A DNA stretch of 64,000 bases. Source: Alphaproteobacteria bacterium. GTDB lineage: Bacteria; Pseudomonadota; Alphaproteobacteria; Rs-D84. This document shows positions 2,954 through 50,546 of the stretch, one piece after another (positions within the stretch are counted from its first letter, which is position 1; every line of letters starts with the position of its first letter). The translations under genes were made by a program, and so were the position numbers. The notes beneath the pieces are model-generated. The model ran no database searches. It had not been told where the DNA came from and saw only the letters and a program-made list of their open reading frames with translations. The stretch is from the NCBI GenBank assembly GCA_031555055.1, contig JAVBUT010000002.1:75370-139369 (forward strand), read 5' to 3'.

Positions 2954-2980
2954 AAAACGGGCCCATTTTGGGCCCGTTTT
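2954..2980. terminator. bidirectional rho-independent terminator between convergent genes
   Basis: aaaacgggccc-atttt-gggcccgtttt is a perfect GC-rich stem flanked by A and T runs. Confidence 0.6.
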
Positions 2981-3008
2981 ATAAAATTACCGGTGTTTTG
3001 ATCGTTTT

Positions 3009-3464
3009 TTATAATGAATAATAACAAGGGGGTGTTGCATATTCCCAAGCCCCATTCCCATCTGATCCGGTTATCGTCAATGTATAACAACTGGTTATTT
3101 GCGTACCGTTACCACCGGCAGACATGCCACCGGATGGACACGCCGCACATCCGGTCACACCATTTGTTGTGGTACCATAATACCCAGGGGCGCACCTGTA
3201 CTCTGTGCTTGAATTACATATGTTACAATTGCATGTTCGCGCTGTCCTGGATTGGTATCCCGCGCCCAGATTCGCCCATGACGTACTGGTGCAATCAGTG
3301 CATCCAGTACAGGCCAGACAATTACGATTCGACAGGTAATATCCGGCGTTACAGTTTTTGTAATAACTTTGGCCGCACAACGATGCACCATACGCGATCA
3401 CAGGCATTGTGAAAATCAGTAAAAAAACAGACAGTTTTTTTAGCACTGCGCCGGCTCCTCGCAA
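3009..3464 (-). CDS. small secreted cysteine-rich protein (14 Cys)
   Basis: Signal-like KKLSVFLLIFTMPVIAYGA precedes C-x2-C clusters and GYY motifs (CNAGYYLSNRNCLACTGCTDC, CAPGYYGTTTNGVTGCAACPSGG). The track start at 3464 is TTG. GTG at 3446 is an alternative that overlaps the upstream stop by a few nt. Confidence 0.55.
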   Translation of the reverse strand: MRGAGAVLKKLSVFLLIFTMPVIAYGASLCGQSYYKNCNAGYYLSNRNCLACTGCTDCTSTSWANLGAGYQSRTARTCNCNICNSSTEYRCAPGYYGTTTNGVTGCAACPSGGMSAGGNGTQITSCYTLTITGSDGNGAWEYATPPCYYSL

Positions 3465-3724
3465 TTATGGCCACCATCATCGCATACCCATGTCGCCAGC
3501 CCATAACAAACAAGCGTACATATGGTACCTTTGGTATCCTGATGACAATCTTCTGTGGCGCAATATGGATATTCACAGTTTTCCTCGCCCGGCATAACCG
3601 ACTGGCCCAGGGGACATTCATAATGACCGGTCGACGCAAATCCTGGTCGTGAAAACACAATCACAAAAAGCACAAATGATACAATTGTAAAAACTTTCTT
3701 CACAATCACCCCCATAACATTCAA
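3440..3724 (-). CDS. small secreted cysteine-rich protein (9 Cys)
   Basis: The hydrophobic N-terminus VFTIVSFVLFVIVFSRPGFAS is followed by about 64 aa containing 9 Cys. It sits immediately upstream of, and overlaps, the 3009-3464 gene. Confidence 0.5.
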   Translation of the reverse strand: MNVMGVIVKKVFTIVSFVLFVIVFSRPGFASTGHYECPLGQSVMPGEENCEYPYCATEDCHQDTKGTICTLVCYGLATWVCDDGGHNCEEPAQC

Positions 3725-3758
3725 TTAATGATAGTATTATCCGCAAGCCCAACGCAAG

Positions 3759-3788
3759 AAAAAACGGCGTACGATTGTACGCCGTTTT
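3759..3788 (-). terminator. rho-independent terminator downstream of pal
   Basis: aaaaaacggcgtac-gatt-gtacgccgtttt lies directly after the pal stop on the minus strand. Confidence 0.6.
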
Positions 3789-3808
3789 CGATATCGAACA
3801 ATAAACTA

Positions 3809-4222
3809 TTATTTAACAGTTGTTGTCGCGTTACGGTTCTGTGCCCAGACTTCTTCGCCTGTGCCTTTGACGGCCGGACGTTCTTTGCCATAAGAAATGG
3901 TAGAGATACGTTTAGCTTCGACACCGTCGTTAACCATAACGGCCTTGGCTGCGTTTGCACGACGTGCGCCCAGTGCCAAGTTGTATTCTGTGGAACCACG
4001 TTCGTCACAGTTACCAGCGATCTGGATTTTGGTGTCCGCATGATTTTTCATGTACAAAGACTGGCCCAACAGATTATCGCGAGCTTCGCTGTGGATTTCG
4101 GAAGAATCAAAAGCAAAATATACTTTCTGATTGTTCATATCGGCCGGTTCAACGATGTTTGAACCACCGCAAGCAGCCAGAGCCAATACGCCAGCCAACA
4201 TTGCATAGTTTTTAATTTTCAT
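3809..4222 (-). CDS. pal: peptidoglycan-associated lipoprotein (OmpA-like domain)
   Basis: Lipobox LALAAC-GG, then an OmpA/Pal C-terminal domain (VYFAFDSSEI, GNCDERGSTEYNLALGARRA). Confidence 0.85.
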   Translation of the reverse strand: MKIKNYAMLAGVLALAACGGSNIVEPADMNNQKVYFAFDSSEIHSEARDNLLGQSLYMKNHADTKIQIAGNCDERGSTEYNLALGARRANAAKAVMVNDGVEAKRISTISYGKERPAVKGTGEEVWAQNRNATTTVK

Positions 4223-4300
4223 GGAAATACTCCCTTGTATTTTTGTTGCTCAGGTACTAGTGTATACCAAAATATCATAAGAATCAAGAGAAATCGGGAA

Positions 4301-5053
4301 ATGGGATTAAATTCGTTACACGACTTGCATTTGGCTGGCGTAAAGTGGGAACTGGCTGAAAATCCGCATGTTTGCGACGCCACAAAACATTCGGAAAAAA
4401 CGGCGCCCGGAACACCGTCGTTGGGCATTCCGTCAATTTCAGAATCGTCCATAATTCCGGCGATCGCACCAATGACGATCGCAATGGCCCAAGATTCTGC
4501 CGCGCACGCCGCGGACCTGTCGGCGCTGACCAACGCCATAATTGATTTCAAGCATCCGTTAAAACAATTTGCAAAAAACACCGTGCGACCCACATTCTCC
4601 AGTGATTCGAAATTGCTGATTATAACCGACGCACCGTCCGGCGATGATGATGAATGCGGTAATATTCTGTGCGGGGCGGGCGGCGATCTGTTGGACAAGA
4701 TGTTGAATGCCATCGGATTGTCACGCGATAATGTCTCGATCATACCGATGATATTCTGGCGGACGCCGGGCGGACGCGGCGCCACGCGTGAAGAACTGGA
4801 CCTGGCGCGACCATTCGTTGCGCGCGCGATCGAATTACTGGCGCCGCGTGCGATACTGACACTGGGGACGCTGGCCGCACTGGAGATTGCCGGTGCAAAA
4901 TTACCAAAGCAGCACGGTGAATTTGTTGAACGCAGCGGAATGGCGCCAGTTGTTCCGATTTATCATCCGAATTACCTGTTGCTGAAACCGGACGCAAAGC
5001 GCGATGTTTGGAACGCACTGCAAAGCATGCAAAATTTCTTGAAAAACCCATAA
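4301..5053 (+). CDS. uracil-DNA glycosylase superfamily protein (family 4/5-like)
   Basis: LLIITDAPSGDDDE...G..G.LLDKML.AIGL and a C-terminal IYHPNYLL motif resemble family-4 UDGs, although the first motif deviates from GE(A/G)PG. I prefer ATG 4301 to the track start 4235, which would abut the divergent pal start. Confidence 0.6.
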   Translation: MGLNSLHDLHLAGVKWELAENPHVCDATKHSEKTAPGTPSLGIPSISESSIIPAIAPMTIAMAQDSAAHAADLSALTNAIIDFKHPLKQFAKNTVRPTFSSDSKLLIITDAPSGDDDECGNILCGAGGDLLDKMLNAIGLSRDNVSIIPMIFWRTPGGRGATREELDLARPFVARAIELLAPRAILTLGTLAALEIAGAKLPKQHGEFVERSGMAPVVPIYHPNYLLLKPDAKRDVWNALQSMQNFLKNP

Positions 5054-5096
5054 AAATGTTTAATAATCTGCACATAAGCTTATAAAGGAGCATACA

Positions 5097-5645
5097 ATTA
5101 GACCGCCAGTACAACGTGATAACCGCAGGGATTTAGGTCCCCGCATGAACAATAAAATTTTCGCCAAAAGCGTCCAGGTGATTTCTGATACCGGCGCAAA
5201 TCTGGGCATTATGCCAACGCCCCAGGCGCTGTCTATGGCGATGGATGCGGGCTTGGACCTGGTTGAAATCAATGCAACCAACGTGCCGCCGATCGTCAAG
5301 ATCATGGATTACGGCAAGTTCAAATACGATCAGAAAAAACGCGCGAATGAAGCGCGCAAGAACCAGAAAACCACCGAAATGAAGGAAGTCTGGATAAAGC
5401 CGTTTATCGAAGAAAACGATCTGAACGTCAAAATGAAAAAGGTTTTCGAATTCCTGGGCGAAGGCGACAAGGTCAAGATTTCCGTCATGACCAAAGGATC
5501 GAAAAAGGTTTTGGCGCGCGGCAAAGACGCGGTTCCCGAACTGTTTGCACGGGTTATTGAAATCATCGGCGATCATGGAAACTTGGAATCCAAATCAAAG
5601 CCTGATGAACGAACAAAATCGATCATCATCGCACCTGCAAAGTAA
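5097..5645 (+). CDS. infC: translation initiation factor IF-3, probable ATT start
   Basis: The IF-3 core is clear (GIMPTPQALSMAMDAGLDLVEI, PPIVKIMDYGKFKY). In-frame upstream of the track ATG (5145) the frame reads IRPPVQRDNRRDLGPR, like alphaproteobacterial IF-3 N-termini. ATT at 5097 follows AGGAG (5086-5090) by 6 nt. Confidence 0.8.
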   Translation: MRPPVQRDNRRDLGPRMNNKIFAKSVQVISDTGANLGIMPTPQALSMAMDAGLDLVEINATNVPPIVKIMDYGKFKYDQKKRANEARKNQKTTEMKEVWIKPFIEENDLNVKMKKVFEFLGEGDKVKISVMTKGSKKVLARGKDAVPELFARVIEIIGDHGNLESKSKPDERTKSIIIAPAK

Positions 5646-5648
5646 AAA

Positions 5649-5671
5649 ATCCGGCAACTGCCGGATTGTTT
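5649..5671 (+). terminator. hairpin after infC
   Basis: atccggc-aact-gccggat followed by a weak T tract (tgttta). Confidence 0.45.
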
Positions 5672-5722
5672 ATCATATTTTATTTGCAAATGTTTTTTGG
5701 TTTGTTATAATTCGGCGCACAT

Positions 5723-5799
5723 GGGTGTGTAGCTCAGTTGGTTAGAGCGTTACGTTGACATCGTAAAGGTCGTCGGTTCGAGTCCAATCACACCCACCA
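5723..5799 (+). tRNA. tRNA-Val (anticodon GAC)
   Basis: Hand-folded cloverleaf. The acceptor GGGTGTG/CACACCC is followed by ACCA. The D arm is GCTC..GAGC and the anticodon arm is TTACG-TTGACAT-CGTAA. The T loop is TTCGAGT, with one C-A mismatch in the T stem by my fold. Confidence 0.85.
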
Positions 5800-5805
5800 G
5801 ATTAA

Positions 5806-5868
5806 TTTATGATTTCTGATTTACGATTTAATAAAAAAATCAGAAATCAGCAATCATAAATCAGAAAT
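5806..5868. repeat. imperfect hairpin built from 7-nt units (TGATTTN / AATCAGA family) abutting the metG start
   Basis: The left arm is tttatgatttctgatttacgattt. The right arm is aaatcagaaatcagcaatcataaatcagaaat and runs directly into ATG 5869. Confidence 0.85.
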
Positions 5869-7884
5869 ATGAATAACAAATTTTTAATCACATCTGCACT
5901 GCCGTACGTTAACAACGTCTTGCATATCGGACATCTGATCGGTTGCTGGCTGCCATCGGACGTATATGCGCGCTTTTGCCGCAGCATGGGTCGCGATGTC
6001 TTGTTTATATGCGGCGCAGACGAATATGGAACCACCAGCGAAATTGGTGCACTGAAAGAAGGCATGCCCGTCGAAGAATACGTTGACAAGTATCGCACAG
6101 AACACGAAAAATCTGTTCGGGATTTTAATTTGTCATTTGATCTGTACGGGCGCACGCATACAGAACTACATACAAAACTGGTACAATCATTATTCACGCG
6201 TCTGGACGAAGAGGGGTTGATTGAAGAACGTACATCAATTCAACCATATTCAGTAAAAGACAAAATGTTTCTGGCCGATCGGTTTGTTATCGGCACATGC
6301 CCGAAATGCGGGTATGACAATGCGTACGGCAACGAATGTGGCCAGTGCGGCACAACACTGGACCCTGGTGATCTGATCAGTCCGCACAGTGCCGTGAACG
6401 CTGATTCTCCGGTCGAAATGCGCGAAACAAAACATCTGTACATCAAACTGTCCGCTATGCAGGACAAATTGCGCGCATGGATAGACTCACGCGTCGGCTG
6501 GCCAAAAACCGCGCTGACTATTGCGAACAAATGGCTGGACGAAGGGCTGCGCGATACGCCGATTACACGCGATCTCAAATGGGGTATTCCGGTAAACAAG
6601 CCAGGGTACGAGAATAAGGTTTTCTATGTGTGGTTTGATGCGCCGTGGGGATATGTTTCAATTTCACAGGCTGCCACCAAAGACTGGGAATCATGGTGGA
6701 AAAATCCAGACTGCCACTACAGACAATTTATGGGCAAAGATAATGTTGCATTCCACGCCGTAACATTTCCATCGCAGCAATTGGCGATCAATGACGGATG
6801 GAAAATGGTCGATGTGCTAAAGGCTTTGAATTTTCTAAATTTCGAAGGCGCAAAAATATCAAAATCGACCGGCAATGGAATTTTCCTGAACGAGGCAATA
6901 AAAGACGCACCGGCGGACGCGTGGCGTTATGCATTAATGGCGTCCGCGCCGGAAACGGATGATACGGACTTTACTATCCAGCGCTTTGCCGATATTGTCA
7001 ACAAGGACCTGAACGGCATGCTGGGGAACTTTGTTTCGCGCGTATGCAAACTGACCGAAAAGAATTTCGGGAATCAGGTACCCGCAGGGGCGAATAATAT
7101 TCGTCCAAATCATCAGGGCGAATGTGATTCGCCCCTACAAAAATCAATCAATGAAAAATTATCGGAATTGACTGCTGCGCTGGACGCGTGCGAATTTCGA
7201 AACGCCGTATTCGCACTGCGCGGACTGTGGGCGATCGGCAACGAATTTATGACGGAAACAGCGCCATGGACGATGGTTAAAAATGGTGATATGGATGGCG
7301 CTGGGGCCGCATTAAACGAATGTTTTCAGCTGATCGATTTTTATGCACGCGTATCCGCACCGTTTATTCCGGACGCGGCGGGGAAAATGCTTCGCATTTT
7401 CAGGAATCAGGAACCAGGAATCAGTTGGCCAAGCGCGTACGAACGCCGCATTGCGGCCGGCACAGAATTTGTCGTACCTGAAAATCTTTTCGAAAGAATC
7501 GATGATGATAAAATTAAATTGTTAACCGAAAAATACGCGTCAAAGAAACTGGACGCGCCGAAAATTGTTACCGCGAAAATATTGACTGTGGACGCGCACC
7601 CGACCAAGGAAGGCCTGGCGGTTCTGACCGTGGACGCGGGCGATGAAAAACCGCTGACAATCGTCTGTGGCGCGCCGAATGTACGGCCGGGCTTTGTCGG
7701 CGTATTGGCACACGTTGGCGCGATTTTGCCCGGCCAGAAAAAGCCGATCACAAAACGCGCTGTCGCCGGCGTCGAAAGCCATGGCATGATGTGCAGCGCC
7801 GCAGAGCTGGGCGTCGGCCAGGACGGTGACAATATTTTGGAACTGGCCGGCGACAGTATGATCGGCGTAAAGTTTAACGCCTAG
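5869..7884 (+). CDS. metG: methionyl-tRNA synthetase with C-terminal tRNA-binding OB-fold domain
   Basis: HIGH-type motif (PYVNNVLHIGHL), Zn knuckles (CPKCG...CGQCG) and KMSKS-type motif (KISKSTGNG). The C-terminal roughly 105 aa form a tRNA_bind-type domain. Confidence 0.9.
   Translation: MNNKFLITSALPYVNNVLHIGHLIGCWLPSDVYARFCRSMGRDVLFICGADEYGTTSEIGALKEGMPVEEYVDKYRTEHEKSVRDFNLSFDLYGRTHTELHTKLVQSLFTRLDEEGLIEERTSIQPYSVKDKMFLADRFVIGTCPKCGYDNAYGNECGQCGTTLDPGDLISPHSAVNADSPVEMRETKHLYIKLSAMQDKLRAWIDSRVGWPKTALTIANKWLDEGLRDTPITRDLKWGIPVNKPGYENKVFYVWFDAPWGYVSISQAATKDWESWWKNPDCHYRQFMGKDNVAFHAVTFPSQQLAINDGWKMVDVLKALNFLNFEGAKISKSTGNGIFLNEAIKDAPADAWRYALMASAPETDDTDFTIQRFADIVNKDLNGMLGNFVSRVCKLTEKNFGNQVPAGANNIRPNHQGECDSPLQKSINEKLSELTAALDACEFRNAVFALRGLWAIGNEFMTETAPWTMVKNGDMDGAGAALNECFQLIDFYARVSAPFIPDAAGKMLRIFRNQEPGISWPSAYERRIAAGTEFVVPENLFERIDDDKIKLLTEKYASKKLDAPKIVTAKILTVDAHPTKEGLAVLTVDAGDEKPLTIVCGAPNVRPGFVGVLAHVGAILPGQKKPITKRAVAGVESHGMMCSAAELGVGQDGDNILELAGDSMIGVKFNA
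7401..7424 (+). repeat. 7-nt tandem array inside metG
   Basis: caggaat caggaac caggaat cag, translated in-frame as RNQEPGIS. Confidence 0.8.
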
Positions 7885-10835: not shown

Positions 10836-12514
10836 TGAACTATATGCTAATGTTAAATTACGACGTAATCATCATCGGTGGGGGGCATGCGGGCGTGGAA
10901 AGCGCAACCGCATCTGCGCGCCGTGGCGCAAACACACTGCTGATTACAAAATCAAAATCCGACCTGGGGGCGATGTCATGCAATCCATCGATCGGTGGTC
11001 CCGGCAAATCACAAATGGTCGCAGAAATGGACGCACTGGGCGGGATTATGCCAATTGCGGCAGATCGCGCGGGAATTCATTGGCGAACGCTGAACGCGAC
11101 CCATGGCGCGGCAACGACGGCCTTGCGCGCGCAGATTGATCGTAAAAAATATCACAACGCGATTGTGGAAATACTATCAGATTATCCGAATTTGACTGTC
11201 GAGTTTGGCGATGTTGAAACATTGGATTTAGAAAATAAAATCGTCAATGGAAACTATTCGGCGCACGCGATTGTTTTAACCACGGGGACTTTCCTGGGCG
11301 GACTGGTCACACGCGGGGCCGAAAAAATCGAATCAGGTCGTCTGCGCGACGATAATACATACCAGGAAAACGATAAAAATATATCAAAAATACTGCAAAA
11401 GGCCGGCTTTTCGATATTAAGATTGAAAACCGGAACGCCCGCACGCATATGGCGCGATTCGATTGATTTTTCCGTCTGCGAAGTGCAATCCAGTGATCTG
11501 GAACACGAATATTTTTCCGGAACGCCACGAATCACGAATCACGAACCACAAATCACGAATTGCTATATCACACACACAAACGAATCTGTTCATCAGTTTA
11601 TCCGCGATAATATTACCGACGCGCCGATGTATAACGGCGATATAACAGGCACCGGGCCGCGATATTGCCCAAGTCTGGAAGACAAGGTCATGCGTTTTCC
11701 GGAACACAAATCGCACCATGTTTTTCTGGAACCCGAAGGCACGGACAGTGATCTGATTTATCCCAACGGAATTTCAACCAGTATGAGTGCCGACGCCCAG
11801 GACAAATGGATACGCATGATCCCAGGACTGGAGAATGCGCGGATCGAACGGTACGGATATGCGATCGAATATGACGCGATTGACGCACGTGCACTGAAAC
11901 CGACGTTGGAATCCAAAGATATTCCGGGACTGTTTTTTGCCGGCCAGATCAACGGCACATCCGGATACGAAGAAGCCGCCGCCCAAGGCATCGTTGCAGG
12001 CGCGAATGCGGCCGGATGTGCGATGGGCGAATATGATTCTCCCATACAAATCGATCGCACGAATTCCATGATCGGGGTTATGATTGACGACATCACAACG
12101 CTGGGCGTGGACGAACCTTACCGTATGTTCACATCACGCGCGGAATTTCGATTGTCGCTGCGCGCGGATAATGCAATTGCGCGTCTGGGTGATATGGCGG
12201 TCAAATTAAATTTGATAACGGAACCCGAACGAAAACAAAAACATGATCAAAAGGCCGGTAAAATCACCGAAAATGATAAATTTTATGCCGGATATATCGC
12301 ACGGAATTTGCGCGAAATCGAAAGTTATAAACGCGATGCAGATTTAAAAATCCCGGAAAATTTCGATTATAAATCATTACCGGGCCTGACCAATGAATTG
12401 GTTGAAAAATTATCCAGAACACGTCCCGCGAATATCGCGTCGCTGGCGCGGATTCCGGGAATTACCCCGGCGGGAATCATGGTCGTACTGCGCAAAATAA
12501 GGACAGGGAATTAA
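10835..12514 (+). CDS. mnmG: tRNA uridine-5-carboxymethylaminomethyl modification enzyme MnmG (GidA)
   Basis: YDVIIIGGGHAGVE FAD motif, GPRYCPSLEDK, and the C-terminal RIPGITPAG. The start is ambiguous (ATG 10835, 10844 or 10850, all in frame). Confidence 0.9.
   Translation: MNYMLMLNYDVIIIGGGHAGVESATASARRGANTLLITKSKSDLGAMSCNPSIGGPGKSQMVAEMDALGGIMPIAADRAGIHWRTLNATHGAATTALRAQIDRKKYHNAIVEILSDYPNLTVEFGDVETLDLENKIVNGNYSAHAIVLTTGTFLGGLVTRGAEKIESGRLRDDNTYQENDKNISKILQKAGFSILRLKTGTPARIWRDSIDFSVCEVQSSDLEHEYFSGTPRITNHEPQITNCYITHTNESVHQFIRDNITDAPMYNGDITGTGPRYCPSLEDKVMRFPEHKSHHVFLEPEGTDSDLIYPNGISTSMSADAQDKWIRMIPGLENARIERYGYAIEYDAIDARALKPTLESKDIPGLFFAGQINGTSGYEEAAAQGIVAGANAAGCAMGEYDSPIQIDRTNSMIGVMIDDITTLGVDEPYRMFTSRAEFRLSLRADNAIARLGDMAVKLNLITEPERKQKHDQKAGKITENDKFYAGYIARNLREIESYKRDADLKIPENFDYKSLPGLTNELVEKLSRTRPANIASLARIPGITPAGIMVVLRKIRTGN
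11526..11560 (+). repeat. 7-nt tandem array inside mnmG
   Basis: cacgaat cacgaat cacgaac cacaaat cacgaat, translated as PRITNHEPQITN. Confidence 0.8.
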
Positions 12515-14102: not shown

Positions 14103-17100
14103 ATGTCATATAAAAAGACAGATGCAAAAGCGAATTTTACGGCGATCGAACACGAAATGCTGAACGCATGGCGCAGTGGAAATATATTCCATAAATCGCT
14201 GAAACAGACCGAATCCGGAAAACCGTTCAGCTTTTATGACGGACCGCCGTTTGGAAACGGTCTGCCGCACTGGGGGCACTTGGGCGTAACCGCGGTAAAA
14301 GATATGGTATGCAGATACCAGACGATGACTGGTCGCCATGTCCAGCGCGAGCTGGGGTGGGACTGTCACGGATTGCCGGCGGAAAATTCGGTCGAGAAAA
14401 AACAAAAGCGCAGCGCCAAGGATATTGTCGCAAATGACGGCATGGACGTGTTCTGTGATATGTGCCGCATTGACGTCATGACATATACCAAAGAATGGGG
14501 CAGATTTATCGAACGTATGGGTCGCTGGGTTGATATCGGCGACGAATACGGATATCGCACAATGGACCGCGATTATATGGAATCCATGCTGTGGACCTTG
14601 AAAACACTGTATGACCGCGGACTGCTGTACAAGGATTATTCCGTAAACTGGTTCGACTGGGTCAATGGCACAATCGTTTCCAATTCCGAAGCGTCCCAGG
14701 ATTACCGTGATGTTGTCGACGACGCAGTAACGGTATGGTTTGGGCTGGAGAACGGCAGACGGGTTTTGGCATGGACAACGACGCCATGGACGCTGCCTGC
14801 AAACTCTGCCTTGGCCGTGAATCCAAAAATGCAATATGCCGTTATGCGGGACAACGACGGCGCGGAATACATCATCGCAGAATCCAGATTGACCGCCTAT
14901 GAAAAACAGTTCGCAGATGCGACACGCGTCGGCACAATATCTGGCGCGGACCTGGTCGGTTTAAAATATGCACCACTGTTCAATTATTATACCGATGAAA
15001 AGCTGTACCGCATAATTTCCGCCGATTACGTCAGCGACGGCGACGGTACCGGAATCGTGCACATTGCGCCGGCGTATGGCGCCGAAGATTTTTGGGCGGT
15101 AAAGAACATCGACCCGGAATTCCCGGTCATCCTGAACGTCGACAACTATGGAAACTTTACGGCCGATGTTACTGATTTTGCAGGCCAGAATATCTTTGCG
15201 GCCGGGCCACAGATTATCGAAAACCTTAAAAAGGCCGGTAATTTGGTCAAAAAAGAACAATACAAGCACAACTATCCGTACGGCGACCGGTCGCACGAAA
15301 AGTTGATCCAGCGCGCGACTGATTCCTGGTATATCAATGTGCCAAAAATCAAGGATAAACTGCTGGCTAATAATGCAAAGGTTAATTGGACTTCGGCTGG
15401 CGAGCGTTTCCGCGCATGGATTGAAAATGCGCGTCCTTGGGCGATTTCGCGCAACCGTTTCTGGGGAACACCATTGCCGATCTGGACACGTGGCGGCGAA
15501 TTCAAAGTATTCGGATCAATCGCAGAATTGGAAGAATTCTTTGGCGTAAAGATAAACGATCTGCATCGCCCGACATTGGATGCATTGGAAAAAGACGGCT
15601 GGAAACGCATTCCGGACGTTCTGGATTGTTGGGTGGAATCCGGGTCAATGCCATGGGCGTCGCTGCACTATCCGTTCGAAAACACCGACAAATTCAATGC
15701 AACATTTCCGGCGGATTATATTATCGAAGGCCAAGATCAAACCCGCGGATGGTTCTATGCGCTGATGGTTTTGGCGACCGCATTGTTTGATCAGCCTGCA
15801 TTTATGACCGTATCTGCGAACGGTATGATCGTTGATGAAAACAAAAAGAAATTTTCAAAATCATTAGGTAACTTTGTAAATCCCGAAGGACAAATTGAAC
15901 AGTTTGGCGCAGACGCGATCCGCCTGTTCATCCTGGGGTCTAATTTCATGAAGGCCGAGCCTGTCCCCGTCGACAAGGAAGGCAAAGTATTTGCCGAGCC
16001 GATAAAATCGGTCCTGACTCCGTTATGGAATGCGTATCATTTCTTTACGCTGTATGCGAATGCTGGGGATATAAGTGTCAGTGTCAGTGACAGTGTCAGT
16101 GACAGTGTCACCAGAAATATCCTTGACCAATATATTGTCGCAGAATTGGATAGTTTGGTCATCGTCGCGCGCGACGCACTGGACGCATATGCACCAGACC
16201 GTGCACTTGCCAGTGTCACAAGGTTCTTGGACATTTTAAACAACTGGTACATACGTCGTTCACGGGAACGTTTCTGGGACGAAGAGCAGGGCGCATTCGA
16301 TACACTGTACTTTGTTCTGACCGAGCTTTGTAAATTGCTGGCGCCATTCGCACCGTTTATATCAGACTATATCTATAAAAATCTGACAGGCGCAGAATCC
16401 GTGCATCTAGAGAAGTTCCCAGGAATCAAGAATCAAGAATCAGATGCTAATAGTCTGCTGGCCAATATGCGCCAGATTCAAACAATCGTATCCGTCGGGA
16501 AACAGTTGCGTGAAAAGTATGGTATGCGTAATCGCTTGCCGTTGGCATCTATGACGCTGGCTGCGACAAACATCGGCGCGTTTGATAATGCGTACAAAGA
16601 AATTATCGCAGACGAACTGAACGTCAAAAACGTAAACATCGTTGATGAAATTTCATCAGTTGCTGACAGTTTTGTATACCTGATCACGCCGAAAATCGGT
16701 GCGCGTCTGGGTGGCGCGTTGAAAGAAATCATCCCGGCCGTCAAGAATGGAAATTACACTATCGACAACGGGCAACTTATTGTCGATACGATTCACGATT
16801 CACAGTTCACGATTCACGACGATGAATTCGAATCACGTTTAACCATAAAGCCGGGCATCACCGGCGCGGCGCTGCCGGATAATACTGCGGTGGTTGTTCT
16901 GGATACCGAATTGAATTCGGAATTGATCGCCGAAGGTTTGGCAAACGACGCATTGCGCTTTATCCAGGATACGCGCAAGACCGTTGGGTTAAATGTTTCC
17001 GATCGCATAACACTGGAATACAGTGCTGATCCTGCATTGGCGGATGCGATGGAATCGCATCGCGCACGTATCATGGCCGACACATTGGCAACTGATATGA

Positions 17101-18311: not shown

Positions 18312-18350
18312 AAAAACACCGGCCTTTTCATCAAAAAGGCCGGTGTTTTT
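18312..18350. terminator. bidirectional terminator between nth and pheT
   Basis: aaaaacaccggcctttt-catca-aaaaggccggtgttttt. Confidence 0.7.
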
Positions 18351-20335
18351 TATTTTATAAAATCCGTCGCGTCTTGCATGATTTTTACGATCAGCGCGTT
18401 TATTTCATCGGTCTTGAAATCGCGCGGAACAAATGCCAATGTGTATGTAACATTGCGAACTGATTCTTTTGGCTTTTCAAAAACGTCGGCGATTTTGACA
18501 TCCGCAATCTCTTTGAAATTTTTCAAGATAAATTCGGCGACGTCTCCCGCATGCTTGCCATACGGTACCGCAACGGATACATCGCGAACACTGGCAATTG
18601 TTGCGGACGGCGATTCGTATTTGATTTTGCGCGGCGCCAGATTTAACAATTCTTCACAATCAAAGAATTCAAAAATCACGGGCAGATCATTTTTTATATC
18701 CCATTCGGCCAATAACACCGGGTGTATTTCGCCAAAGATGCAAATTTCCCGGCCTTTTGATACAATTTTGCCGCAACGGGTTGGGTGTATGCATGGTTTT
18801 ACACAAAAATCAGCTGCATTGCCATATTCAATCGAATATTCAATACCTAAATCTTTCATCAGATTTTCCAGCAGTCCTTTGACATCCAGTGGCGATATTT
18901 TCGCACCATTCATAACACCCCACAGGACGTTGTGCTCGCCGTCTTTTTGGAAAACCTTGCCCCATTCATAGCACCGAATTTCGCGATTTTTTACATTGAT
19001 ATTTTTCGCAACCAGTTCTGCGGCCTGGACAATCGCATTGTTTTTCATAAACGCATACCCGCCGTCCACACTGTTTTCCAGCGCGATATGATCCGCAACC
19101 GGCGACATATTGGCGTGTTTCGGCGAATACAGATTATCTGTAAATACCTCGTAAAATCCATTATGAACCATGTACGAATCGATTTCTGATTTACGCAACT
19201 GGGCGGATGTTGGTTCGGCGCCGATTGTAACCTGTGGCAAACGCGACGACAGATTGTTATAGCCAATCGAACGACACAACTCTTCAATCAAATCGGCGCG
19301 TGTACCCTTGATATCCCATACGCGCCATGTTGGAATCATGTATCCGCCGGGCGTTTTTTCAAACCCGTACCGCGCCAGGCGTTCATCAATTTCCTTGTCC
19401 GTGATCTTGATTTCCAGCGCATTGCGAACATAGTCGCCGGACATTTCGATATATTGTTTTTCAATGCGTTTTGACCGCGCAAAACAGAACTGGCCGTTTG
19501 GTTCCCAACCCATGTCCGAATACAGTTTATGCGCACGCGCAGCCCCCGCACATATCGCGGAAATATCGCCACCACGTTCGAATATCTGGGCGGCAATTGT
19601 CGGCTTTTCCAACAACGCACGTTCAGTCCGGCGGATAGATACAGGATCAAACAGCGCGGTTTCAAATAATATATTGGTTGTGTTTTCATCAACGTCCGCG
19701 CCATGGCATCCGATAACGCCACCAACGCATAAAATCTTTTCATCGTCGGCGATTACCACAGTGCCAGCCGGCAATTCGGTCATGCCTTCGTGAAATAACA
19801 GGGCGGCCATTTCGCCCTTTTTTGTTTCGCGTACATGGATTTTGCCAACAATCTTGTCTGCGTCGTATATGTGCGCCGGCTGGCCGTATTCCAACAAGAC
19901 GACATTTGTCACGTCAATTGCCGGCAAAATCACGTTAACACCGCTGGCGGTCAGCATTTCAGTGTAGTTTGCCGGTGTTTTGACATGTTTTTTGAATTTA
20001 TAAGGCGTTAACGAGAACGCGATACACTTATCTGTTTCCAATTCGAACAGGTGTTTTTGACCTGGTGTTTTGATATATTTCGAATCAGCATCATATTCGT
20101 GATCATCCTGCATAACGGGCGTTGATTTCGGAATAGTGATTTTTCCACCCGTGCGTCCAGAAATTTCACGCGCCAATCCCATATAGCAATAATGATCACC
20201 ACGATTGGCCAGCAATTCCAAGTTTATAATATCACCATCGACGGTTTTAACCTCTAACCCGACATCCTCCATCAGATCGATCCAGTCTTTTGGCAGATCG
20301 ACAAATGTTTTTAATGTTTTTAAAAAGAACTTCAT
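18350..20335 (-). CDS. pheT: phenylalanyl-tRNA synthetase beta subunit lacking the N-terminal B2 (tRNA-binding OB) domain
   Basis: MKFFLKTLKTFVDL...GLEVKTVDGDIINLELLANRGDHYCYMGLAREI joins B1 directly to the segment that follows B2 in E. coli PheT. It is 661 aa against about 795 aa. Confidence 0.85.
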   Translation of the reverse strand: MKFFLKTLKTFVDLPKDWIDLMEDVGLEVKTVDGDIINLELLANRGDHYCYMGLAREISGRTGGKITIPKSTPVMQDDHEYDADSKYIKTPGQKHLFELETDKCIAFSLTPYKFKKHVKTPANYTEMLTASGVNVILPAIDVTNVVLLEYGQPAHIYDADKIVGKIHVRETKKGEMAALLFHEGMTELPAGTVVIADDEKILCVGGVIGCHGADVDENTTNILFETALFDPVSIRRTERALLEKPTIAAQIFERGGDISAICAGAARAHKLYSDMGWEPNGQFCFARSKRIEKQYIEMSGDYVRNALEIKITDKEIDERLARYGFEKTPGGYMIPTWRVWDIKGTRADLIEELCRSIGYNNLSSRLPQVTIGAEPTSAQLRKSEIDSYMVHNGFYEVFTDNLYSPKHANMSPVADHIALENSVDGGYAFMKNNAIVQAAELVAKNINVKNREIRCYEWGKVFQKDGEHNVLWGVMNGAKISPLDVKGLLENLMKDLGIEYSIEYGNAADFCVKPCIHPTRCGKIVSKGREICIFGEIHPVLLAEWDIKNDLPVIFEFFDCEELLNLAPRKIKYESPSATIASVRDVSVAVPYGKHAGDVAEFILKNFKEIADVKIADVFEKPKESVRNVTYTLAFVPRDFKTDEINALIVKIMQDATDFIK

Positions 20336-20345
20336 TTTATACTCC

Positions 20346-20394
20346 GTAATTCGTGACTCGTGATTCGTGACTCGAATTACGAATCACGAATTAA
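20346..20394. repeat. 7-nt array hairpin in the pheS-pheT intercistronic gap
   Basis: gtaattc gtgactc gtgattc gtgactc gaattac gaatcac gaattaa, with inverted matches gtaattcg/cgaattac and cgtgattcg/cgaatcacg. Confidence 0.85.
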
Positions 20395-20397
20395 GAG

Positions 20398-21384
20398 TTA
20401 CGACTTTATCTGTTTAAACACCCGCATATCCATTCCGTACAATTCCCGCATATTTGCGCCGGTAAATTCGCCGGCCAGGCGCGATGTGCCGAATCCGAAT
20501 GCAAAGCCAGTCACGCGGTCCGGATCAAACCCGAAATTTCGCATAACACGTGGCGACACCATTCCCGCGCCCACAATTGTAATCCATTTCCCGGACGCGG
20601 TTTTAATGTCTGCGCCGATTGACGGTTCGGTGTATGGGTAATACTTTGGCTTGAATCGCACTTGGACTTCCGGACCATAAATCTCGCGCAGGATATATTC
20701 CAGCGTACCCTTTAATTCTGAAACTTTCATATCATGACCAACCATCAGACCTTCGAATTGATGAAATATCGCCAGGTGGGTTGCATCGACGGCTTCGTTA
20801 CGATAAACGCGGCCCGGGGAAACAATACGTATCGGCAGTTTGGATTCATCACCTTTTAAATCCATCATATAACGGCTTTGCACGGATGTGGTGTGCGTAC
20901 GCAGGACGATTTTATCTTTCTTGATCCAGAAAGTGTCCTGCATATCGCGGGCAGGGTGGTTTTCATCAATATCCAACAGATCGAAATTGTACTTTGGCTC
21001 CTCTACCTCTGGTCCGGTAACCGCGACAAAGCCCAGACGCGCCATGGCGGCGATACACTTTTCTTCGATAACCGACACCGGGTGGCGCGCGCCGCATTCC
21101 GTACCAATACCCGGCAGGGTCATATCAAAGGTATCATTTTGCAATTTCTGATTTATGATTGCCAATTGCTGATTTTTCTTGGCATTCTCGATCAGTTCTT
21201 CAATTTCCATGCGCAGTTTATTAATTTCAGCACCCGCCGCGGCACGTTTATCCGGCGTCAGATCGCGCAAGGCGTCCATTTGCGCCTTGATCTCGCTTTT
21301 TTTGCCCAAGTATTTGGATTTTATATTATCCAAGTCCTGGGGCGTCTTTGCGCCGGCTAATTCTTTTTGCAGTTCTTTGATCAT
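20398..21384 (-). CDS. pheS: phenylalanyl-tRNA synthetase alpha subunit
   Basis: Class II motifs ([19 protein letters not shown]-like [15 protein letters not shown]) and a typical coiled-coil N-terminus. Confidence 0.9.
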
Positions 21385-21752
21385 AATTTATACTCCGTAC
21401 CCGGTTTTGCGTTTTCTGGCAATTCCAATATCCCGCTGTGGTCGTTCGACAGACCCAGTTCCTTGGCCGAACACATCATGCCAAATGATTCCACCCCGCG
21501 CAAGGCAATCGGCGCCAGTGCGTCCGTTTCCCCAGGCAAGATCGCCCCAGGGCGGGCCAATACGCCGACAAACCCCGCACGTACGTTCGGTGCGCCACAG
21601 ACGATCTGCTGTATGTCGCCGCACCCGCAATCAACGCGCAGCACATGCAGCCGGTCCGCATTCGGATGTTTTTCAACCGCGATGATTTTCGCGACGACCA
21701 GTGTCGGTGCGGATTTTTCTTTTTTTGAAAATAATTTTTTTAACCAGTTCAT
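21381..21752 (-). CDS. stand-alone tRNA-binding OB-fold protein equivalent to the PheT B2 domain
   Basis: [25 protein letters not shown]...[11 protein letters not shown]...[29 protein letters not shown] aligns motif for motif with E. coli PheT residues about 45-150. Its stop overlaps the pheS start (ATGA). Confidence 0.8.
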
Positions 21753-21795
21753 ATTCTATCCGTTTTGTCTTTGGGCGAATATAATTCGCCCATAT

Positions 21796-21824
21796 GAAAA
21801 ACAAACCTGCCGATTGGCAGGTTT
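21796..21824 (-). terminator. hairpin with T tract between rplT and the pheS operon
   Basis: On the minus strand this reads aaacctgcc-aatc-ggcaggtttgttttt. Confidence 0.55.
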
Positions 21825-21856
21825 ATTATTACAAATCAAAACCACCCCGCCAAGGC

Positions 21857-22225
21857 TTATTTAGCATCTTTGGAGATAAATCGTTTCGCAGTGTCGCACA
21901 GTGTCGCGAAGTTCGCGTCGCCGGCGTACGCCATTTCGGCCAATACTTTGCGATCCAGTTCGATCCCGGCCTTTTTCATGCCGTTCATGAACTGGCTGTA
22001 TGTCAGACCGTTCGCGCGAACCGCCGCATTGATACGGACGATCCACAATGATCTAAAGTCGCGCTTTTTGGTGCGACGATCACGGTATGCATACTGGCCT
22101 GCCTTTTCGGTCTTTTCACGGGCGGCACGGTATGTCGTGCTGTGACGTCCCAGATAGCCTTTGGCGCGTTGCAGAATTTTATTGTGTTTTTGTTTGACGG
22201 TTGTGCCGCGTTTTACTCTTGCCAT
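21857..22225 (-). CDS. rplT: 50S ribosomal protein L20
   Basis: [18 protein letters not shown]..., typical L20. Confidence 0.95.
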
Positions 22226-22238
22226 TTTACTGCCCCTT

Positions 22239-22445
22239 TTATTTCTTTAGTCCATAAGGGGTCAAGATTTTAGCCTGTCCCATCATATTGTCATTCAGAT
22301 ATTGCGCCTTGGACCCCTGGTTGTTTGAACGCTTGGTCTTTTTGCGCAACAGTTTTTTGTGGCTGTTTCTGGCAACGCGGATTTTGCCGGTTGCAGTAAT
22401 GCTCGCACGTTTTTTCATGTACGATTTTGTTTTCATTTTTGGCAT
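22239..22445 (-). CDS. rpmI: 50S ribosomal protein L35
   Basis: [22 protein letters not shown]..., typical L35. Confidence 0.9.
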
Positions 22446-22465
22446 TTTAAGCTCCTGTTAGTCGC

Positions 22466-22528
22466 CGTGATTCGTAATTAGTGATTCATGATTCGAAAAC
22501 CATAAATCATAAACTACCAATCATAAAT
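22466..22528. repeat. 7-nt tandem array upstream of rpmI
   Basis: cgtgatt cgtaatt agtgatt catgatt cgaaaac cataaat cataaac taccaat cataaat. A second short array (acgaatc acaagtc acgaatc) lies at 22613-22636. Confidence 0.8.
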
Positions 22529-22710
22529 TAAGCTTTGATGGCAACGCCGTGCCATTTCAAGCCCGCCAATTATTGCTTAAAATATAAAAAAAGCAAGTTT
22601 TTTATTCGATTTACGAATCACAAGTCACGAATCACGTTTAAGTTTTTATTGAATGTTATGATTTTAAATATTACCCTGACCCTGTAAAACACATTCCCGG
22701 ACATAATGTT

Positions 22711-23532: not shown

Positions 23533-23591
23533 CAGTGTCAGTGTCAGTTACAGAAAAGGTTACTGACACTGACACTGACACTGACACCGAC
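23533..23591. repeat. hexamer-array hairpin (GTGACA)n / (TGACAC)n in the mreC-mreD gap
   Basis: gtgacagtgtcagtgtcagt-tacagaaaaggtta-ctgacactgacactgacactgacac. A near-identical copy lies at 47906-47968. Confidence 0.85.
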
Positions 23592-24032
23592 ATGAAATAC
23601 ATACGTCTCATCTTTCCGTTTCTGGTCACGATTTTATTGTGGCGGTTATCGGTGCCGTTTTGGAATCCGGCCGGTATTCTGGCCATGATTCCGATATTCT
23701 ATTATTCTTTTATTCGCCCAACGCCATGGTTTGCGCCATTCGCAGGAATTTTTTGTTTTTTGATCGACTATCGGTTTGATACACTGTTGTTTTGGACATC
23801 ATTGTACTGTTTGTTTTACGCGGTGAACGGATTGCAGAACTTTGTCGATCTGACACGGCAAAAGTACGACGGCGCACTGGTGTTCCTGGGATACTTTGGC
23901 GCCGCATTGCTGATACTGGCGCTGATGGGATGGAACTGGACCGGACTGGCGCGCGCTATATGGCTGTTTCTGTGGGCTGGAATATGGTATATGCCTTTTA
24001 CATCATTATCAAAAAGGTTGCTTGATGATTGA
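23592..24032 (+). CDS. mreD: rod shape-determining protein MreD
   Basis: Multi-pass hydrophobic protein of about 146 aa in mreC-mrdA context. I prefer ATG 23592 to GTG 23529, whose extra residues are purely repeat-encoded (TVSVSVTEKVTDTDTDTDTD). Confidence 0.7.
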   Translation: MKYIRLIFPFLVTILLWRLSVPFWNPAGILAMIPIFYYSFIRPTPWFAPFAGIFCFLIDYRFDTLLFWTSLYCLFYAVNGLQNFVDLTRQKYDGALVFLGYFGAALLILALMGWNWTGLARAIWLFLWAGIWYMPFTSLSKRLLDD

Positions 24033-31319: not shown

Positions 31320-32414
31320 TTAATTATTAAACAAAAAGTGACAAATGTCGCCGTCGTTCATAACATAATCCCGGCCGACCAGACGCATTTTGCCGGCATC
31401 CTTGACAGCAACCTCGGACCCAAGTGTGATATAATCGCTAGGCGATATGATTTCCGCGCGGATAAAACCTTTTTCAAAATCAGTATGTATCTTGCCGGCG
31501 GCTTGGGGCGCGGTCATCCCGCGACTGATTGTCCATGCGTGCGCTTCCTTAGGGCCGATCGTATAAAACGTCTGCAGACCCAATGTTTCATATCCTGTGC
31601 GGATAATCTGTGACAGGCCGGATTCGGTCAGGCCCAGTTCATCCAAAAACATTTTACGCTCGGCCGGATCGACAATTTGTGAAATTTCCATTTCTATTTT
31701 TGATGAAATTACCAGAACCGGTGATGTATTTCCAAACTTTTCAGTCACAGCGCGCGAATATTCGTTGCCAGTGGCGGCGGCTGATTCTTCGACATTACAC
31801 ACGTAAATTACCGGCTTTTCGGTTAATAAATTGAAAAGATTTCCGATTTCTGATTTCTGATTTCTGATTTGATCCCTGGCCGGTGTTCCGTCCTCTAGCC
31901 CTTTTTTAATTTCATTCGCCAGGTCCAATTGTTTTATCGCTTCCTTGTCCTGGCCGCGGGCCTTTTTGGTTAAATTCGCAATCTGTTTATCCAAAGATTC
32001 CAAGTCAGCCAGCATCAGTTCTGTTTCAATAATATCAATATCGGCCAATGGGTCTATGCGGCCGGCAACATGCACAATATCATCGTTTTGAAAACAACGT
32101 ACGACATGTATGATCGCGTCTGTCGCCAAAATATTGCCCAAGAATTTATTCCCCAAACCTTCGCCAGATGACGCCCCTTTGACCAGGCCCGCTATATCGA
32201 CAATTTCCAGTTGGGTCGGGATTATTTTTTGCGAACCGGCAACCGTGGCCAGTTTGTGCAACGTCTCGTCCGGAACAACCACGCGGCCTGTGTTCGGCTC
32301 TATGGTGCAAAAAGGATAGTTTTGGGCATCGGCTGTGGCACTCATCGTCAATGCGTTAAACAATGTTGATTTACCAACATTCGGCAGTCCTACAATTCCA
32401 CAGTTGAATCCCAT
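31320..32414 (-). CDS. ychF: ribosome-binding ATPase YchF
   Basis: GIVGLPNVGKSTLFNAL P-loop and a TGS-like C-terminus (GFIRAEI). Confidence 0.9.
   Translation of the reverse strand: MGFNCGIVGLPNVGKSTLFNALTMSATADAQNYPFCTIEPNTGRVVVPDETLHKLATVAGSQKIIPTQLEIVDIAGLVKGASSGEGLGNKFLGNILATDAIIHVVRCFQNDDIVHVAGRIDPLADIDIIETELMLADLESLDKQIANLTKKARGQDKEAIKQLDLANEIKKGLEDGTPARDQIRNQKSEIGNLFNLLTEKPVIYVCNVEESAAATGNEYSRAVTEKFGNTSPVLVISSKIEMEISQIVDPAERKMFLDELGLTESGLSQIIRTGYETLGLQTFYTIGPKEAHAWTISRGMTAPQAAGKIHTDFEKGFIRAEIISPSDYITLGSEVAVKDAGKMRLVGRDYVMNDGDICHFLFNN
31838..31872 (-). repeat. 7-nt tandem array inside ychF
   Basis: The forward strand reads gatttcc gatttct gatttct gatttct gatttga. In the sense orientation this is the AATCAGA family, translated as IRNQKSEIGN. 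Confidence 0.8.
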
Positions 32415-47905: not shown

Positions 47906-47968
47906 TGACAGTGACAGTGACAGTGACAAAAGTGGTCGCTGACACTGACACTGACACTGACACTGATT
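47906..47968. repeat. hexamer-array hairpin filling the ATPase-platform intercistronic gap
   Basis: gtgacagtgacagtgacagtgaca-aaagtggtcgc-tgacactgacactgacactgacactg. It is the twin of 23533-23591. Confidence 0.85.
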
Positions 47969-50465: not shown

Positions 50466-50504
50466 AAAAAATCACCTTTGTTTTTGTAAATTATACCATA
50501 TTTT

Positions 50505-50546
50505 TAGTCATTAGTCACTAGTCATTAGTCAATAGTCAATAGTGCG
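50505..50546. repeat. 7-nt tandem array (TAGTCAT family) upstream of gyrB
   Basis: tagtcat tagtcac tagtcat tagtcaa tagtcaa tagtgcg. An inverted partial copy (cgactattgactagttgcta) lies at 50571-50590. Confidence 0.85.

What the first reader, a model, noticed from the sequence alone, without database searches (positions are those of the whole stretch)
18350..21752. PheRS beta-subunit B2 (tRNA-binding OB) domain split off and relocated upstream of pheS
PheT here is 661 aa, and its sequence runs from the B1 segment (GLEVKTVDG) directly into the post-B2 segment (INLELLANRGDHYCYMGLAREI). The missing roughly 105-residue domain is encoded as a separate 123-aa gene at 21381-21752. That gene sits upstream of pheS with an ATGA overlap. 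It matches E. coli PheT B2 motif for motif (HPNADRL, VCGAPN, GV.S.GM.CS..ELG.S.DHSGI.ELP). The operon order is therefore B2, pheS, heptamer hairpin, pheT(deltaB2). This is a gene fission with domain permutation in an essential aaRS.
Basis: partly seen in the sequence, partly recalled or inferred. Interest (0 to 1): 0.65.

Follow-up and report, generated by a model that had tools for sequence, protein, structure and literature searches.

The report
Free-standing B2-type tRNA-binding gene before pheS
This gut alphaproteobacterium has a phenylalanyl-tRNA synthetase whose beta subunit lacks the B2 tRNA-binding domain and a separate 123-aa B2-like protein encoded just before pheS, but the small gene was added later to an enzyme family that already lacked B2, so it is not a piece split off from PheT.

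Summary
PheT (18350-20335, minus strand) lacks exactly the B2 OB domain. A 123-aa B2-type tRNA_bind gene (21381-21752) overlaps pheS by ATGA.

The 'fission and relocation' reading is not supported.
- pheS and pheT belong to a distinct B2-less bacterial PheRS lineage. It also occurs in Acidobacteriota, Myxococcota and other Alphaproteobacteria. It separates from canonical PheRS with 100% NJ bootstrap for both subunits.
- Among close relatives with the same rpmI-rplT-pheS-pheT operon, only one subclade carries the small gene. The sister subclade, the basal lineage and the outgroup lack it and show no remnant.
- The same window encodes a MetRS (5869-7884) with a C-terminal B2-type domain 51% identical to the 123-aa protein. 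The two group together in NJ trees (48-72% bootstrap) and share a linker-like motif that PheT lacks.

Best reading: a mobile B2-type OB module was inserted into an already B2-less pheST operon. It is translationally coupled to PheS and probably supplies tRNA binding or editing support to PheRS in trans. That function is inferred, not shown.

B2-less PheRS beta subunits and B2 domains fused to other synthetases have been reported before, so interest is moderate.

The parts
18350..20335 (-). pheT, 661 aa. Bacterial-type PheRS beta subunit without the B2 domain (B1, B3/4, B5, B6/7, B8 present).
   Evidence: The editing-site residues recalled from the literature (E. coli H265, G318, E334, A356) align to H155, G209, E225 and A248. 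H155, G209 and E225 are invariant across 73 B2-less PheTs.
20336..20397 (-). pheS-pheT spacer: two inverted heptamer arrays forming a hairpin of about 25 bp that ends at the pheT Shine-Dalgarno sequence. There is no T-run after it.
   Evidence: sequence; dG -31.1 kcal/mol, z -6.3; heptamer repeats.
20398..21384 (-). pheS, 328 aa, of the B2-less PheRS lineage.
   Evidence: NJ tree: 48% identity to partners of other B2-less PheTs, 39% to canonical PheS.
21381..21752 (-). Stand-alone B2-type tRNA-binding OB protein, 123 aa. Lys-rich tail at residues 1-16 ([16 protein letters not shown]), OB domain at 17-121. Its stop overlaps the pheS start (ATGA).
   Evidence: A metatranscriptome contig spans it.
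21753..21856 (-). rplT-to-B2 spacer. It holds a terminator-like hairpin (21827-21800) with a T-run, then a second hairpin.
   Evidence: Relatives have an equivalent hairpin directly before pheS.
21857..22445 (-). rplT (21857-22225) and rpmI (22239-22445), the usual upstream neighbours of housekeeping pheST.
   Evidence: The order is conserved in all close relatives.
5869..7884 (+). metG, 671 aa. Residues about 549-671 (nt about 7513-7881) form a B2-type tRNA_bind domain paralogous to the 123-aa protein.
   Evidence: 51% identity; best PDB hits are PheT B2; no hit to TIGR00399 metG_C_term. The same fusion occurs in about 48 of 72 related MAGs.

Best explanation
The operon rpmI-rplT-[123-aa gene]-pheS-pheT encodes the housekeeping PheRS of a reduced-genome gut alphaproteobacterium. 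Its MetRS is about 70% identical to that of Ca. Enterousia, order Rs-D84.

The PheRS belongs to a separate bacterial lineage whose beta subunit has no B2 domain. The 123-aa gene is not a fragment of this pheT. It is a B2-type OB-fold module with a short Lys-rich tail, and it was inserted between the rplT terminator and pheS in one subclade, after PheT was already B2-less. Its closest relatives are the B2-type domains appended to the C-terminus of MetRS in the same bacterial group.

Inferred function: the gene is translationally coupled to pheS (ATGA overlap, conserved in relatives), so it is made together with PheS. It probably acts in trans as an accessory tRNA-binding module for PheRS. That would restore the non-essential role B2 has in canonical enzymes, namely extra tRNA affinity and help with editing of mischarged tRNAPhe.

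Shown: domain identities, phylogenetic placement, distribution, gene overlap, and an RNA-derived contig covering the gene.
Inferred: the direction of acquisition, physical association with PheRS, and the biochemical role.
For: Identity of the 123-aa protein:
- Best PDB and representative hits are PheT B2 at positions about 44-148, 50-58% identical.
- The AF2 model has pLDDT 91 and lies 0.9-1.0 A from E. coli and P. aeruginosa B2.

The B2-less lineage:
- All 120 best PheT homologues are 630-720 aa and lack PF01588.
- NJ trees of the PheT body and of PheS separate the B2-less enzymes from canonical ones with 100% bootstrap.

Distribution of the small gene:
- Present upstream of pheS in the window, L013 and L014. 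P0003, P0017 and P0026 each share a contig, by matching contig length, with an orthologue of the 123-aa protein; adjacency was not checked there.
- Absent within 4 kb, with no tblastn remnant, in L007-L009, L011, L012, L015, L016, L065 and L071, and in more than 45 B2-less operons of other phyla.
- Only 9 orthologue clusters exist against about 29 PheT clusters of the clade.

Link to MetRS:
- 51% identity to the window MetRS C-domain.
- The stand-alone and MetRS-appended domains form one NJ clade with 72% and 48% bootstrap.
- Both share a motif before the domain, L-x3-[FY]-x2-K...P, where PheT has GLEVE.

Coupling and expression:
- ATGA overlap. Overlap also occurs in L013 and L014.
- A 1080-nt metatranscriptome contig spans rpmI/rplT, the small gene and the pheS start.

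The editing-site residues of PheT align as conserved.

Literature:
- B2 is dispensable for aminoacylation but contributes to editing (Roy & Ibba 2006, PMID 16866361; only the title was seen, as cited in PMC12494982, and the content is from my own knowledge).
- B2 is missing in many CPR PheRS beta subunits and is fused to TyrRS or LysRS in some bacteria (PMC5370408).
Against: - There is no direct evidence that the protein binds PheRS or tRNAPhe. No multimer model could be run.
- Support for the stand-alone plus MetRS clade is only moderate (48-72%). It rests on NJ trees of about 105 columns. Raw identity to canonical B2 (mean 51%, maximum 60%) is as high as to the MetRS domains (mean 50%).
- The stand-alone protein keeps the PheT-like HPNADRL motif, whereas the MetRS domains have HPTRExL. 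So it does not descend from the present-day MetRS domains.
- The subclade that carries the gene has only 53% bootstrap. Ancestral presence with several losses is therefore not excluded.
- Absence of the gene elsewhere in the relatives' genomes was inferred from protein-database counts. Whole genomes were not scanned.
- Many close relatives do without the gene, so any contribution to PheRS is dispensable.
- The RNA contig could include carried-over DNA.
Confidence: 0.55

Rival explanations
1. True gene fission. An ancestral full-length pheT in this lineage lost its internal B2 segment, which was re-established as a separate gene upstream of pheS. The three proteins then rebuild a canonical PheRS.
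For: The small protein is B2-type and keeps the PheT motifs HPNADRL and VCGAPN. It lies in the same operon and is coupled to pheS. B2 is an insertion within B1, so its removal leaves B1 intact. An engineered split PheT is viable in M. pneumoniae (PMC12494982).
Against: PheT and PheS group with 100% bootstrap with B2-less enzymes of other phyla that have no such gene. The gene is absent from the sister subclade, the basal lineage and the outgroup of the same operon type. Its N-terminal tail resembles the MetRS linker, not PheT B1. This view also needs an internal excision plus a transposition across pheS.
Confidence: 0.1
2. General free-standing tRNA-binding factor, working like Trbp111, YtpR or Arc1p. 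It would serve other partners such as MetRS, an amidotransferase or tRNA-modifying enzymes. Its position before pheS would be incidental, or would only provide expression.
For: Stand-alone proteins with the same tail occur unlinked to pheST, between an AddA-like helicase gene and a LysM/M23 peptidase gene (P0145 and P0154). The related YtpR binds GatB (PMC10090944). Relatives with the same PheRS lack the gene.
Against: The 4-nt (14-nt in L013) overlap with pheS is kept in divergent relatives with 53-61% PheT identity. Every pheS-linked copy sits in a genome whose PheT lacks B2.
Confidence: 0.25
3. Relic of a displaced canonical pheT. A B2-less pheST cassette replaced the original genes, and only the B2 segment of the old pheT survived as a gene.
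For: Related gut Alphaproteobacteria have canonical PheT with B2; isolate BRZ_R__bin77 carries both the canonical PheT (L090) and the fused MetRS (L237). The stand-alone protein keeps PheT-like motifs.
Against: The gene order is wrong for a relic, because B2 lies upstream of pheS. The B2 domains of canonical PheTs from gut Alphaproteobacteria never grouped with it (0% bootstrap). The gene is missing in the basal lineage and in the sister subclade of the replaced clade.
Confidence: 0.1

Closest known systems
B2 (EMAPII-like OB) domain of bacterial PheRS beta subunit (Pfam PF01588; TIGR00472 positions about 41-151)
   Same: Same fold and motifs. 47-58% identity. rmsd 0.9-1.0 A to E. coli and P. 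aeruginosa B2.
   Different: It is a separate polypeptide with a Lys-rich tail of 16 residues. It is encoded upstream of pheS, not inside pheT. It is not derived from the adjacent pheT.
B2-type domains fused to other aaRS (B2-TyrRS and LysRS fusions in PMC5370408), and the MetRS C-terminal fusion found here in Rs-D84/Enterousia genomes
   Same: The same B2-type module is used outside PheT. The MetRS fusion is the nearest relative in the trees and shares the linker motif.
   Different: Here the module is free-standing and pheS-linked. The MetRS copies have diverged at the HPNADRL motif (HPTRExL).
YtpR family tRNA-binding protein (NF045760; PDB 3bu2 and 9a77_B)
   Same: A free protein with a B2-like OB domain, 43-44% identical, rmsd 1.6-1.7 A. 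The NCBIfam score of 124.6 exceeds the cut-off of 100.
   Different: Only the C-terminal half of the YtpR model is matched (positions 72-184 of 185). The YtpR N-terminal domain is absent. The model also scores genuine PheT fragments at 108-139 bits, so the hit does not discriminate.
Trbp111 / CsaA / MetRS C-terminal domain (TIGR00399) stand-alone and appended OB proteins
   Same: It works like them in principle: a small tRNA_bind OB module acting beside a synthetase.
   Different: Sequence and fold are distant: 17-28% identity, rmsd 2.9 A or more. NF007492 scores 21 bits against a cut-off of 150, and TIGR00399 scores 28.7 against 116.65.
B2-less bacterial PheRS beta subunits (noted for CPR bacteria in PMC5370408)
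   Same: The PheT here lacks B2 yet is bacterial-type (Foldseek E 1e-47 to bacterial beta subunits, 1e-24 to the human one).
   Different: This lineage is found in Alphaproteobacteria, Acidobacteriota, Myxococcota and others. Its relation to the CPR forms was not tested.

Membership tests
PheRS beta B2 domain (PF01588 tRNA_bind of the PheT type) | OB fold with the HPNADxL, VCGAPN and GxxSxGMxCS motifs | tested here: met
PheRS beta B2 domain (PF01588 tRNA_bind of the PheT type) | Inserted within the B1 domain of the PheT polypeptide | tested here: not met
   It is a separate 123-aa ORF upstream of pheS.
Bacterial PheRS beta subunit (TIGR00472 pheT_bact) | Full domain set B1-B8 scoring above the curated cut-off of 402.65 bits | tested here: not met
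   322.9 bits. The alignment starts at model position 147 and B2 is missing. B1, B3/4, B5, B6/7 and B8 are present.
Bacterial PheRS beta subunit (TIGR00472 pheT_bact) | Editing-site residues in B3/B4 (E. coli H265, G318, E334, A356; residue numbers recalled from the literature) | tested here: met
   They align to H155, G209, E225 and A248. The first three are invariant in 73 B2-less PheTs.
YtpR family (NF045760) | Two-domain protein of about 200 aa: an N-terminal YtpR-specific domain plus a C-terminal tRNA_bind domain | tested here: not met
   Only model positions 72-184 of 185 are matched, and there is no N-terminal domain. The model also hits PheT fragments at 108-139 bits.
Trbp111 / CsaA | Sequence membership (NF007492 cut-off 150 bits) and a C-terminal dimerisation segment | tested here: not met
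   21.2 bits over residues 18-57 only. Foldseek rmsd 3.2-3.6 A at 17-23% identity. Dimerisation was not testable.
MetRS C-terminal domain / MetRS beta (TIGR00399) | Score above 116.65 bits | tested here: not met
   28.7 bits for the 123-aa protein. The window MetRS C-domain does not hit TIGR00399 at all.
TapR (NF045867, TyrS-associated protein related to the PheT N-terminal domain) | Score above 120 bits and linkage to tyrS | tested here: not met
   54 bits. The neighbour is pheS, not tyrS.
Third subunit of PheRS (functional claim) | Physical association with PheS/PheT and an effect on charging or editing | not testable with these tools
   Only gene overlap and co-transcription evidence is available.

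The most novel reading that the evidence does not exclude
The 123-aa protein is a genuine third subunit of a B2-less PheRS. In this reading a lineage that lacks B2 regained it in trans by capturing a mobile B2-type module, and the same module was fused in cis to MetRS in the same genome. This would be a natural example of modular exchange of a tRNA-binding domain between synthetases.
Probability: 0.35. Interest if true: 0.6.

Novelty: new variant of a known kind. Interest (0 to 1): 0.42.

Why it matters
It corrects an attractive but wrong evolutionary story. An essential synthetase was not split here.

It also documents three linked facts:
- a multi-phylum lineage of bacterial PheRS that works without B2;
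- a free B2-type protein translationally coupled to pheS in one reduced-genome gut clade;
- a B2-type domain appended to MetRS across Rs-D84/Enterousia genomes.

Together these give a natural test system for what B2 does (tRNA affinity or editing), and for how accessory tRNA-binding modules move between synthetases. Relatives with and without the small gene serve as built-in controls.

Tried and rejected
- Single-protein scan of GTDB genomes with PheT found nothing. An alignment-based scan worked.
It cannot be used to show absence.
- Base composition of the 123-aa gene (GC3 0.60, against 0.48-0.60 for the neighbouring genes) gives no sign of recent foreign origin.
- The YtpR hit above cut-off was rejected as a family assignment, because the model scores true PheT fragments equally well.
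- Cluster look-up gave almost no organism names.
- Rfam found no known leader or riboswitch near the operon.
- The spacer hairpin is not a terminator, because no T-run follows it.
- Assembly or frameshift artefact was rejected.
- No multimer prediction was possible with the tools.
Full report
**Observation.** The three ORFs are exactly as described: pheT 18350-20335(-), 661 aa; pheS 20398-21384(-), 328 aa; and a 123-aa ORF at 21381-21752(-). The stop of the 123-aa ORF overlaps the pheS start as ATGA. rplT and rpmI lie directly upstream, so this is the usual housekeeping context.

Pfam finds B3_4, B5, the catalytic-like module and a weak B8 match in PheT, but no tRNA_bind domain. The 123-aa protein is tRNA_bind, 81 bits. 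TIGR00472 aligns PheT only from model position 147. Canonical PheTs align residues 1-34 to their residues 2-38, and residues 31 onward to their 154 onward. About 115 residues, the B2 domain, are therefore missing.

An AF2 model of PheT (pLDDT 88) shows a tight beta-hairpin, E27-33/E36-41, at the site where B2 is normally inserted. The model matches bacterial PheRS beta chains far better than eukaryotic ones (E 1e-47 against 1e-24).

**What the 123-aa protein is.**
- Its best solved relatives are the B2 domains of Acinetobacter, E. coli and Pseudomonas PheT (86-90 bits). The YtpR-like protein 3bu2 follows at 72 bits. MetRS-C and EMAPII-type chains score 24-33 bits.
- An exhaustive search of 1.8 billion representatives gives hits almost all at positions about 44-148 of roughly 800-aa PheTs or their N-terminal fragments, 50-58% identical.
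- Ten candidates that looked YtpR-like turned out to be PheT fragments or MetRS C-terminal fragments. The NCBIfam YtpR model scores genuine PheT fragments at 108-139 bits, so the 124.6-bit YtpR hit of the query does not discriminate.
- The AF2 model (pLDDT 91; residues 1-16 have low confidence) superposes on E. coli and P. aeruginosa B2 at 0.9-1.0 A over 104 columns. YtpR lies at 1.6-1.7 A, and Trbp111, CsaA and MetRS-C at 2.9 A or more.

The protein is B2-type.

**Why this is not a fission of this PheT.**

First, all 120 best PheT homologues are 630-720 aa and lack PF01588. A scan of GTDB genomes found such B2-less pheS-pheT pairs in Thermoanaerobaculia and other Acidobacteriota, Myxococcota, Caedibacter, Micavibrio, Phycisphaerae and others. 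They are 31-42% identical to the window PheT. Canonical alphaproteobacterial PheTs are only 25-28% identical. NJ trees of the PheT body (554 columns) and of PheS (311 columns) separate all B2-less enzymes from all canonical ones with 100% bootstrap. Lack of B2 is thus a property of a whole lineage of both subunits.

Second, none of these other operons has a B2 gene nearby.

Third, all 12 close relatives for which the upstream DNA is held (51-64% PheT identity) share rpmI-rplT-pheS-pheT. The small gene was confirmed upstream of pheS only in the window, L013 and L014. P0003, P0017 and P0026 each share a contig, by matching contig length, with an orthologue of the 123-aa protein; adjacency was not checked there. 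It is absent, with a spacer of about 80 nt (about 140 nt in L007) and no tblastn remnant, from L007-L009, L011, L012, L015, L016, L058 and L065 (a complete 716-kb chromosome), and from the outgroup L071.

On the PheT tree all carriers fall in one subclade. The sister subclade, the basal lineage and the outgroup lack the gene. Bootstrap support is 53% and 57% for the two subclades and 100% for their union. The protein database holds only 9 orthologue clusters of the small protein, against about 29 PheT clusters of the clade. The most economical history is a later insertion between the rplT terminator and pheS.

**The MetRS link.** The window itself encodes MetRS (5869-7884, 671 aa). Its last 120 residues or so form a B2-type domain 51% identical to the 123-aa protein.
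- The best PDB hits of this domain are again PheT B2, and it does not match the usual MetRS C-terminal model TIGR00399.
- The same fusion is present in about 48 of 72 related MetRS genes from gut Alphaproteobacteria, including Ca. Enterousia (59-72% identity). The others have a short MetRS of about 540 aa.
- One of these genomes (BRZ_R__bin77) carries a canonical PheT with B2, the same contig holding L090 and L237, so the fusion is independent of PheT type.
- In NJ trees of the domain, the pheS-linked stand-alone proteins and the MetRS-appended domains form one clade, with 72% bootstrap for 63 taxa and 48% for 135 taxa. The B2 domains of canonical PheTs from gut Alphaproteobacteria never join it (0%).
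- The stand-alone tail, [16 protein letters not shown], aligns with the MetRS linker, VxxLTEKYAPKKxDxxP. Canonical PheT has IGLEVEEV at that position.
- The stand-alone protein keeps HPNADRL while the MetRS domains have HPTRExL. The two are therefore sister groups, and neither derives from the other's present-day forms.
- A relative syntenic with the window (L249) has metG split into genes of 547 and 122 aa that overlap by 13 nt.
- Stand-alone proteins with the same tail also occur unlinked to pheST in another lineage.

**Function (inferred).** The overlap with pheS is conserved in L013 and L014. That points to co-production with PheS.

In an invertebrate-gut metatranscriptome, a 1080-nt contig runs from rpmI/rplT across the terminator-like hairpin and the small gene into pheS. 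This is consistent with co-transcription, but carried-over DNA cannot be excluded.

In canonical PheRS, B2 is dispensable for aminoacylation and contributes to editing (Roy & Ibba 2006, PMID 16866361; only the title was seen, as cited in PMC12494982, and the content is from my own knowledge). The editing-site residues of the window PheT align as conserved.

I therefore propose that the protein acts in trans as an accessory tRNA-binding module for PheRS. Its contribution would be dispensable, because close relatives live without it. No tool here could test binding.

**Comparison with what is known.** B2 missing from many CPR PheRS beta subunits, and B2 fused to TyrRS and LysRS, were noted in PMC5370408. 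An engineered split of PheT is viable in M. pneumoniae (PMC12494982). YtpR is a free B2-like protein that binds GatB (PMC10090944). The case here is a new variant: a free B2-type protein without the YtpR N-terminal domain, coupled to pheS of a B2-less PheRS, with a paralogue fused to MetRS.

**Organism.** The source is an invertebrate gut metagenome. The window MetRS is about 70% identical to MetRS of Ca. Enterousia MAGs of order Rs-D84, a group with genomes below about 1 Mb (PMC12306168). A second PheRS in such a genome is unlikely, but this was not checked.

Noticed in passing
window 5869-7884 (+): MetRS carries a C-terminal PheT-B2-type tRNA_bind domain (residues about 549-671) instead of the usual MetRS C-domain. 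The same fusion is widespread but patchy in Rs-D84/Enterousia MAGs.
   Followed up: yes
window, e.g. 5837-5868, 11526-11560, 16788-16819, 20345-20403, 22465-22491, 22611-22637, 31838-31870, 42012-42244, 50504-50543, 53828-53859: Many short heptamer tandem arrays (3-6 copies), mostly at gene boundaries. Inverted arrays form strong hairpins. The motif TCACGAATCACGA (up to 2 mismatches) occurs 22 times against 2.4 expected. Relative L007 has similar arrays in its rplT-pheS spacer.
   Followed up: partly
L002 (pheS 2979-3989, pheT 4001-6094) and L003 (pheS 2980-3996, pheT 4001-6100): Some B2-less pheS-pheT pairs sit inside biosynthetic neighbourhoods: next to a cyclodipeptide synthase gene in L002, and next to radical SAM, aminotransferase and NRPS genes in L003. 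They may be second, dedicated or resistance copies of PheRS.
   Followed up: no
L249 3370-5369: A relative syntenic with window 5.8-12.5 kb has metG split into a 547-aa gene and an overlapping 122-aa B2-type gene. This is either a natural fission of MetRS or a frameshift error.
   Followed up: partly
L247 4232-4603 and L006 5001-5375: Stand-alone B2-type proteins of 123-124 aa with the same N-terminal tail (MSFFSKLFSKK) lie in a conserved context unrelated to pheST: AddA-like helicase, a 133-aa ORF, the B2-type gene, a 97-aa ORF, then a LysM/M23 peptidase gene.
   Followed up: partly
window 21749-21793 (-): A 14-codon upstream ORF ([14 protein letters not shown]) lies within the second hairpin. 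Its stop overlaps the start of the 123-aa gene as ATGA. It has no Phe codons, so it is not a pheM-type leader, and it may be chance.
   Followed up: no
window 21800-21827 (-) and the equivalent sites in L008, L009, L014, L065: A terminator-like hairpin with a T-run after rplT is conserved across the clade. An RNA-derived contig nevertheless reads through it, which could indicate attenuation-type control of pheST.
   Followed up: no
window 16074-16110 (in ileS), 23562-23592, 47904-47966: Hexamer repeats lie inside or at the start of ORFs and encode runs such as SVSDSVSDSV and TDTDTDTD.
   Followed up: no
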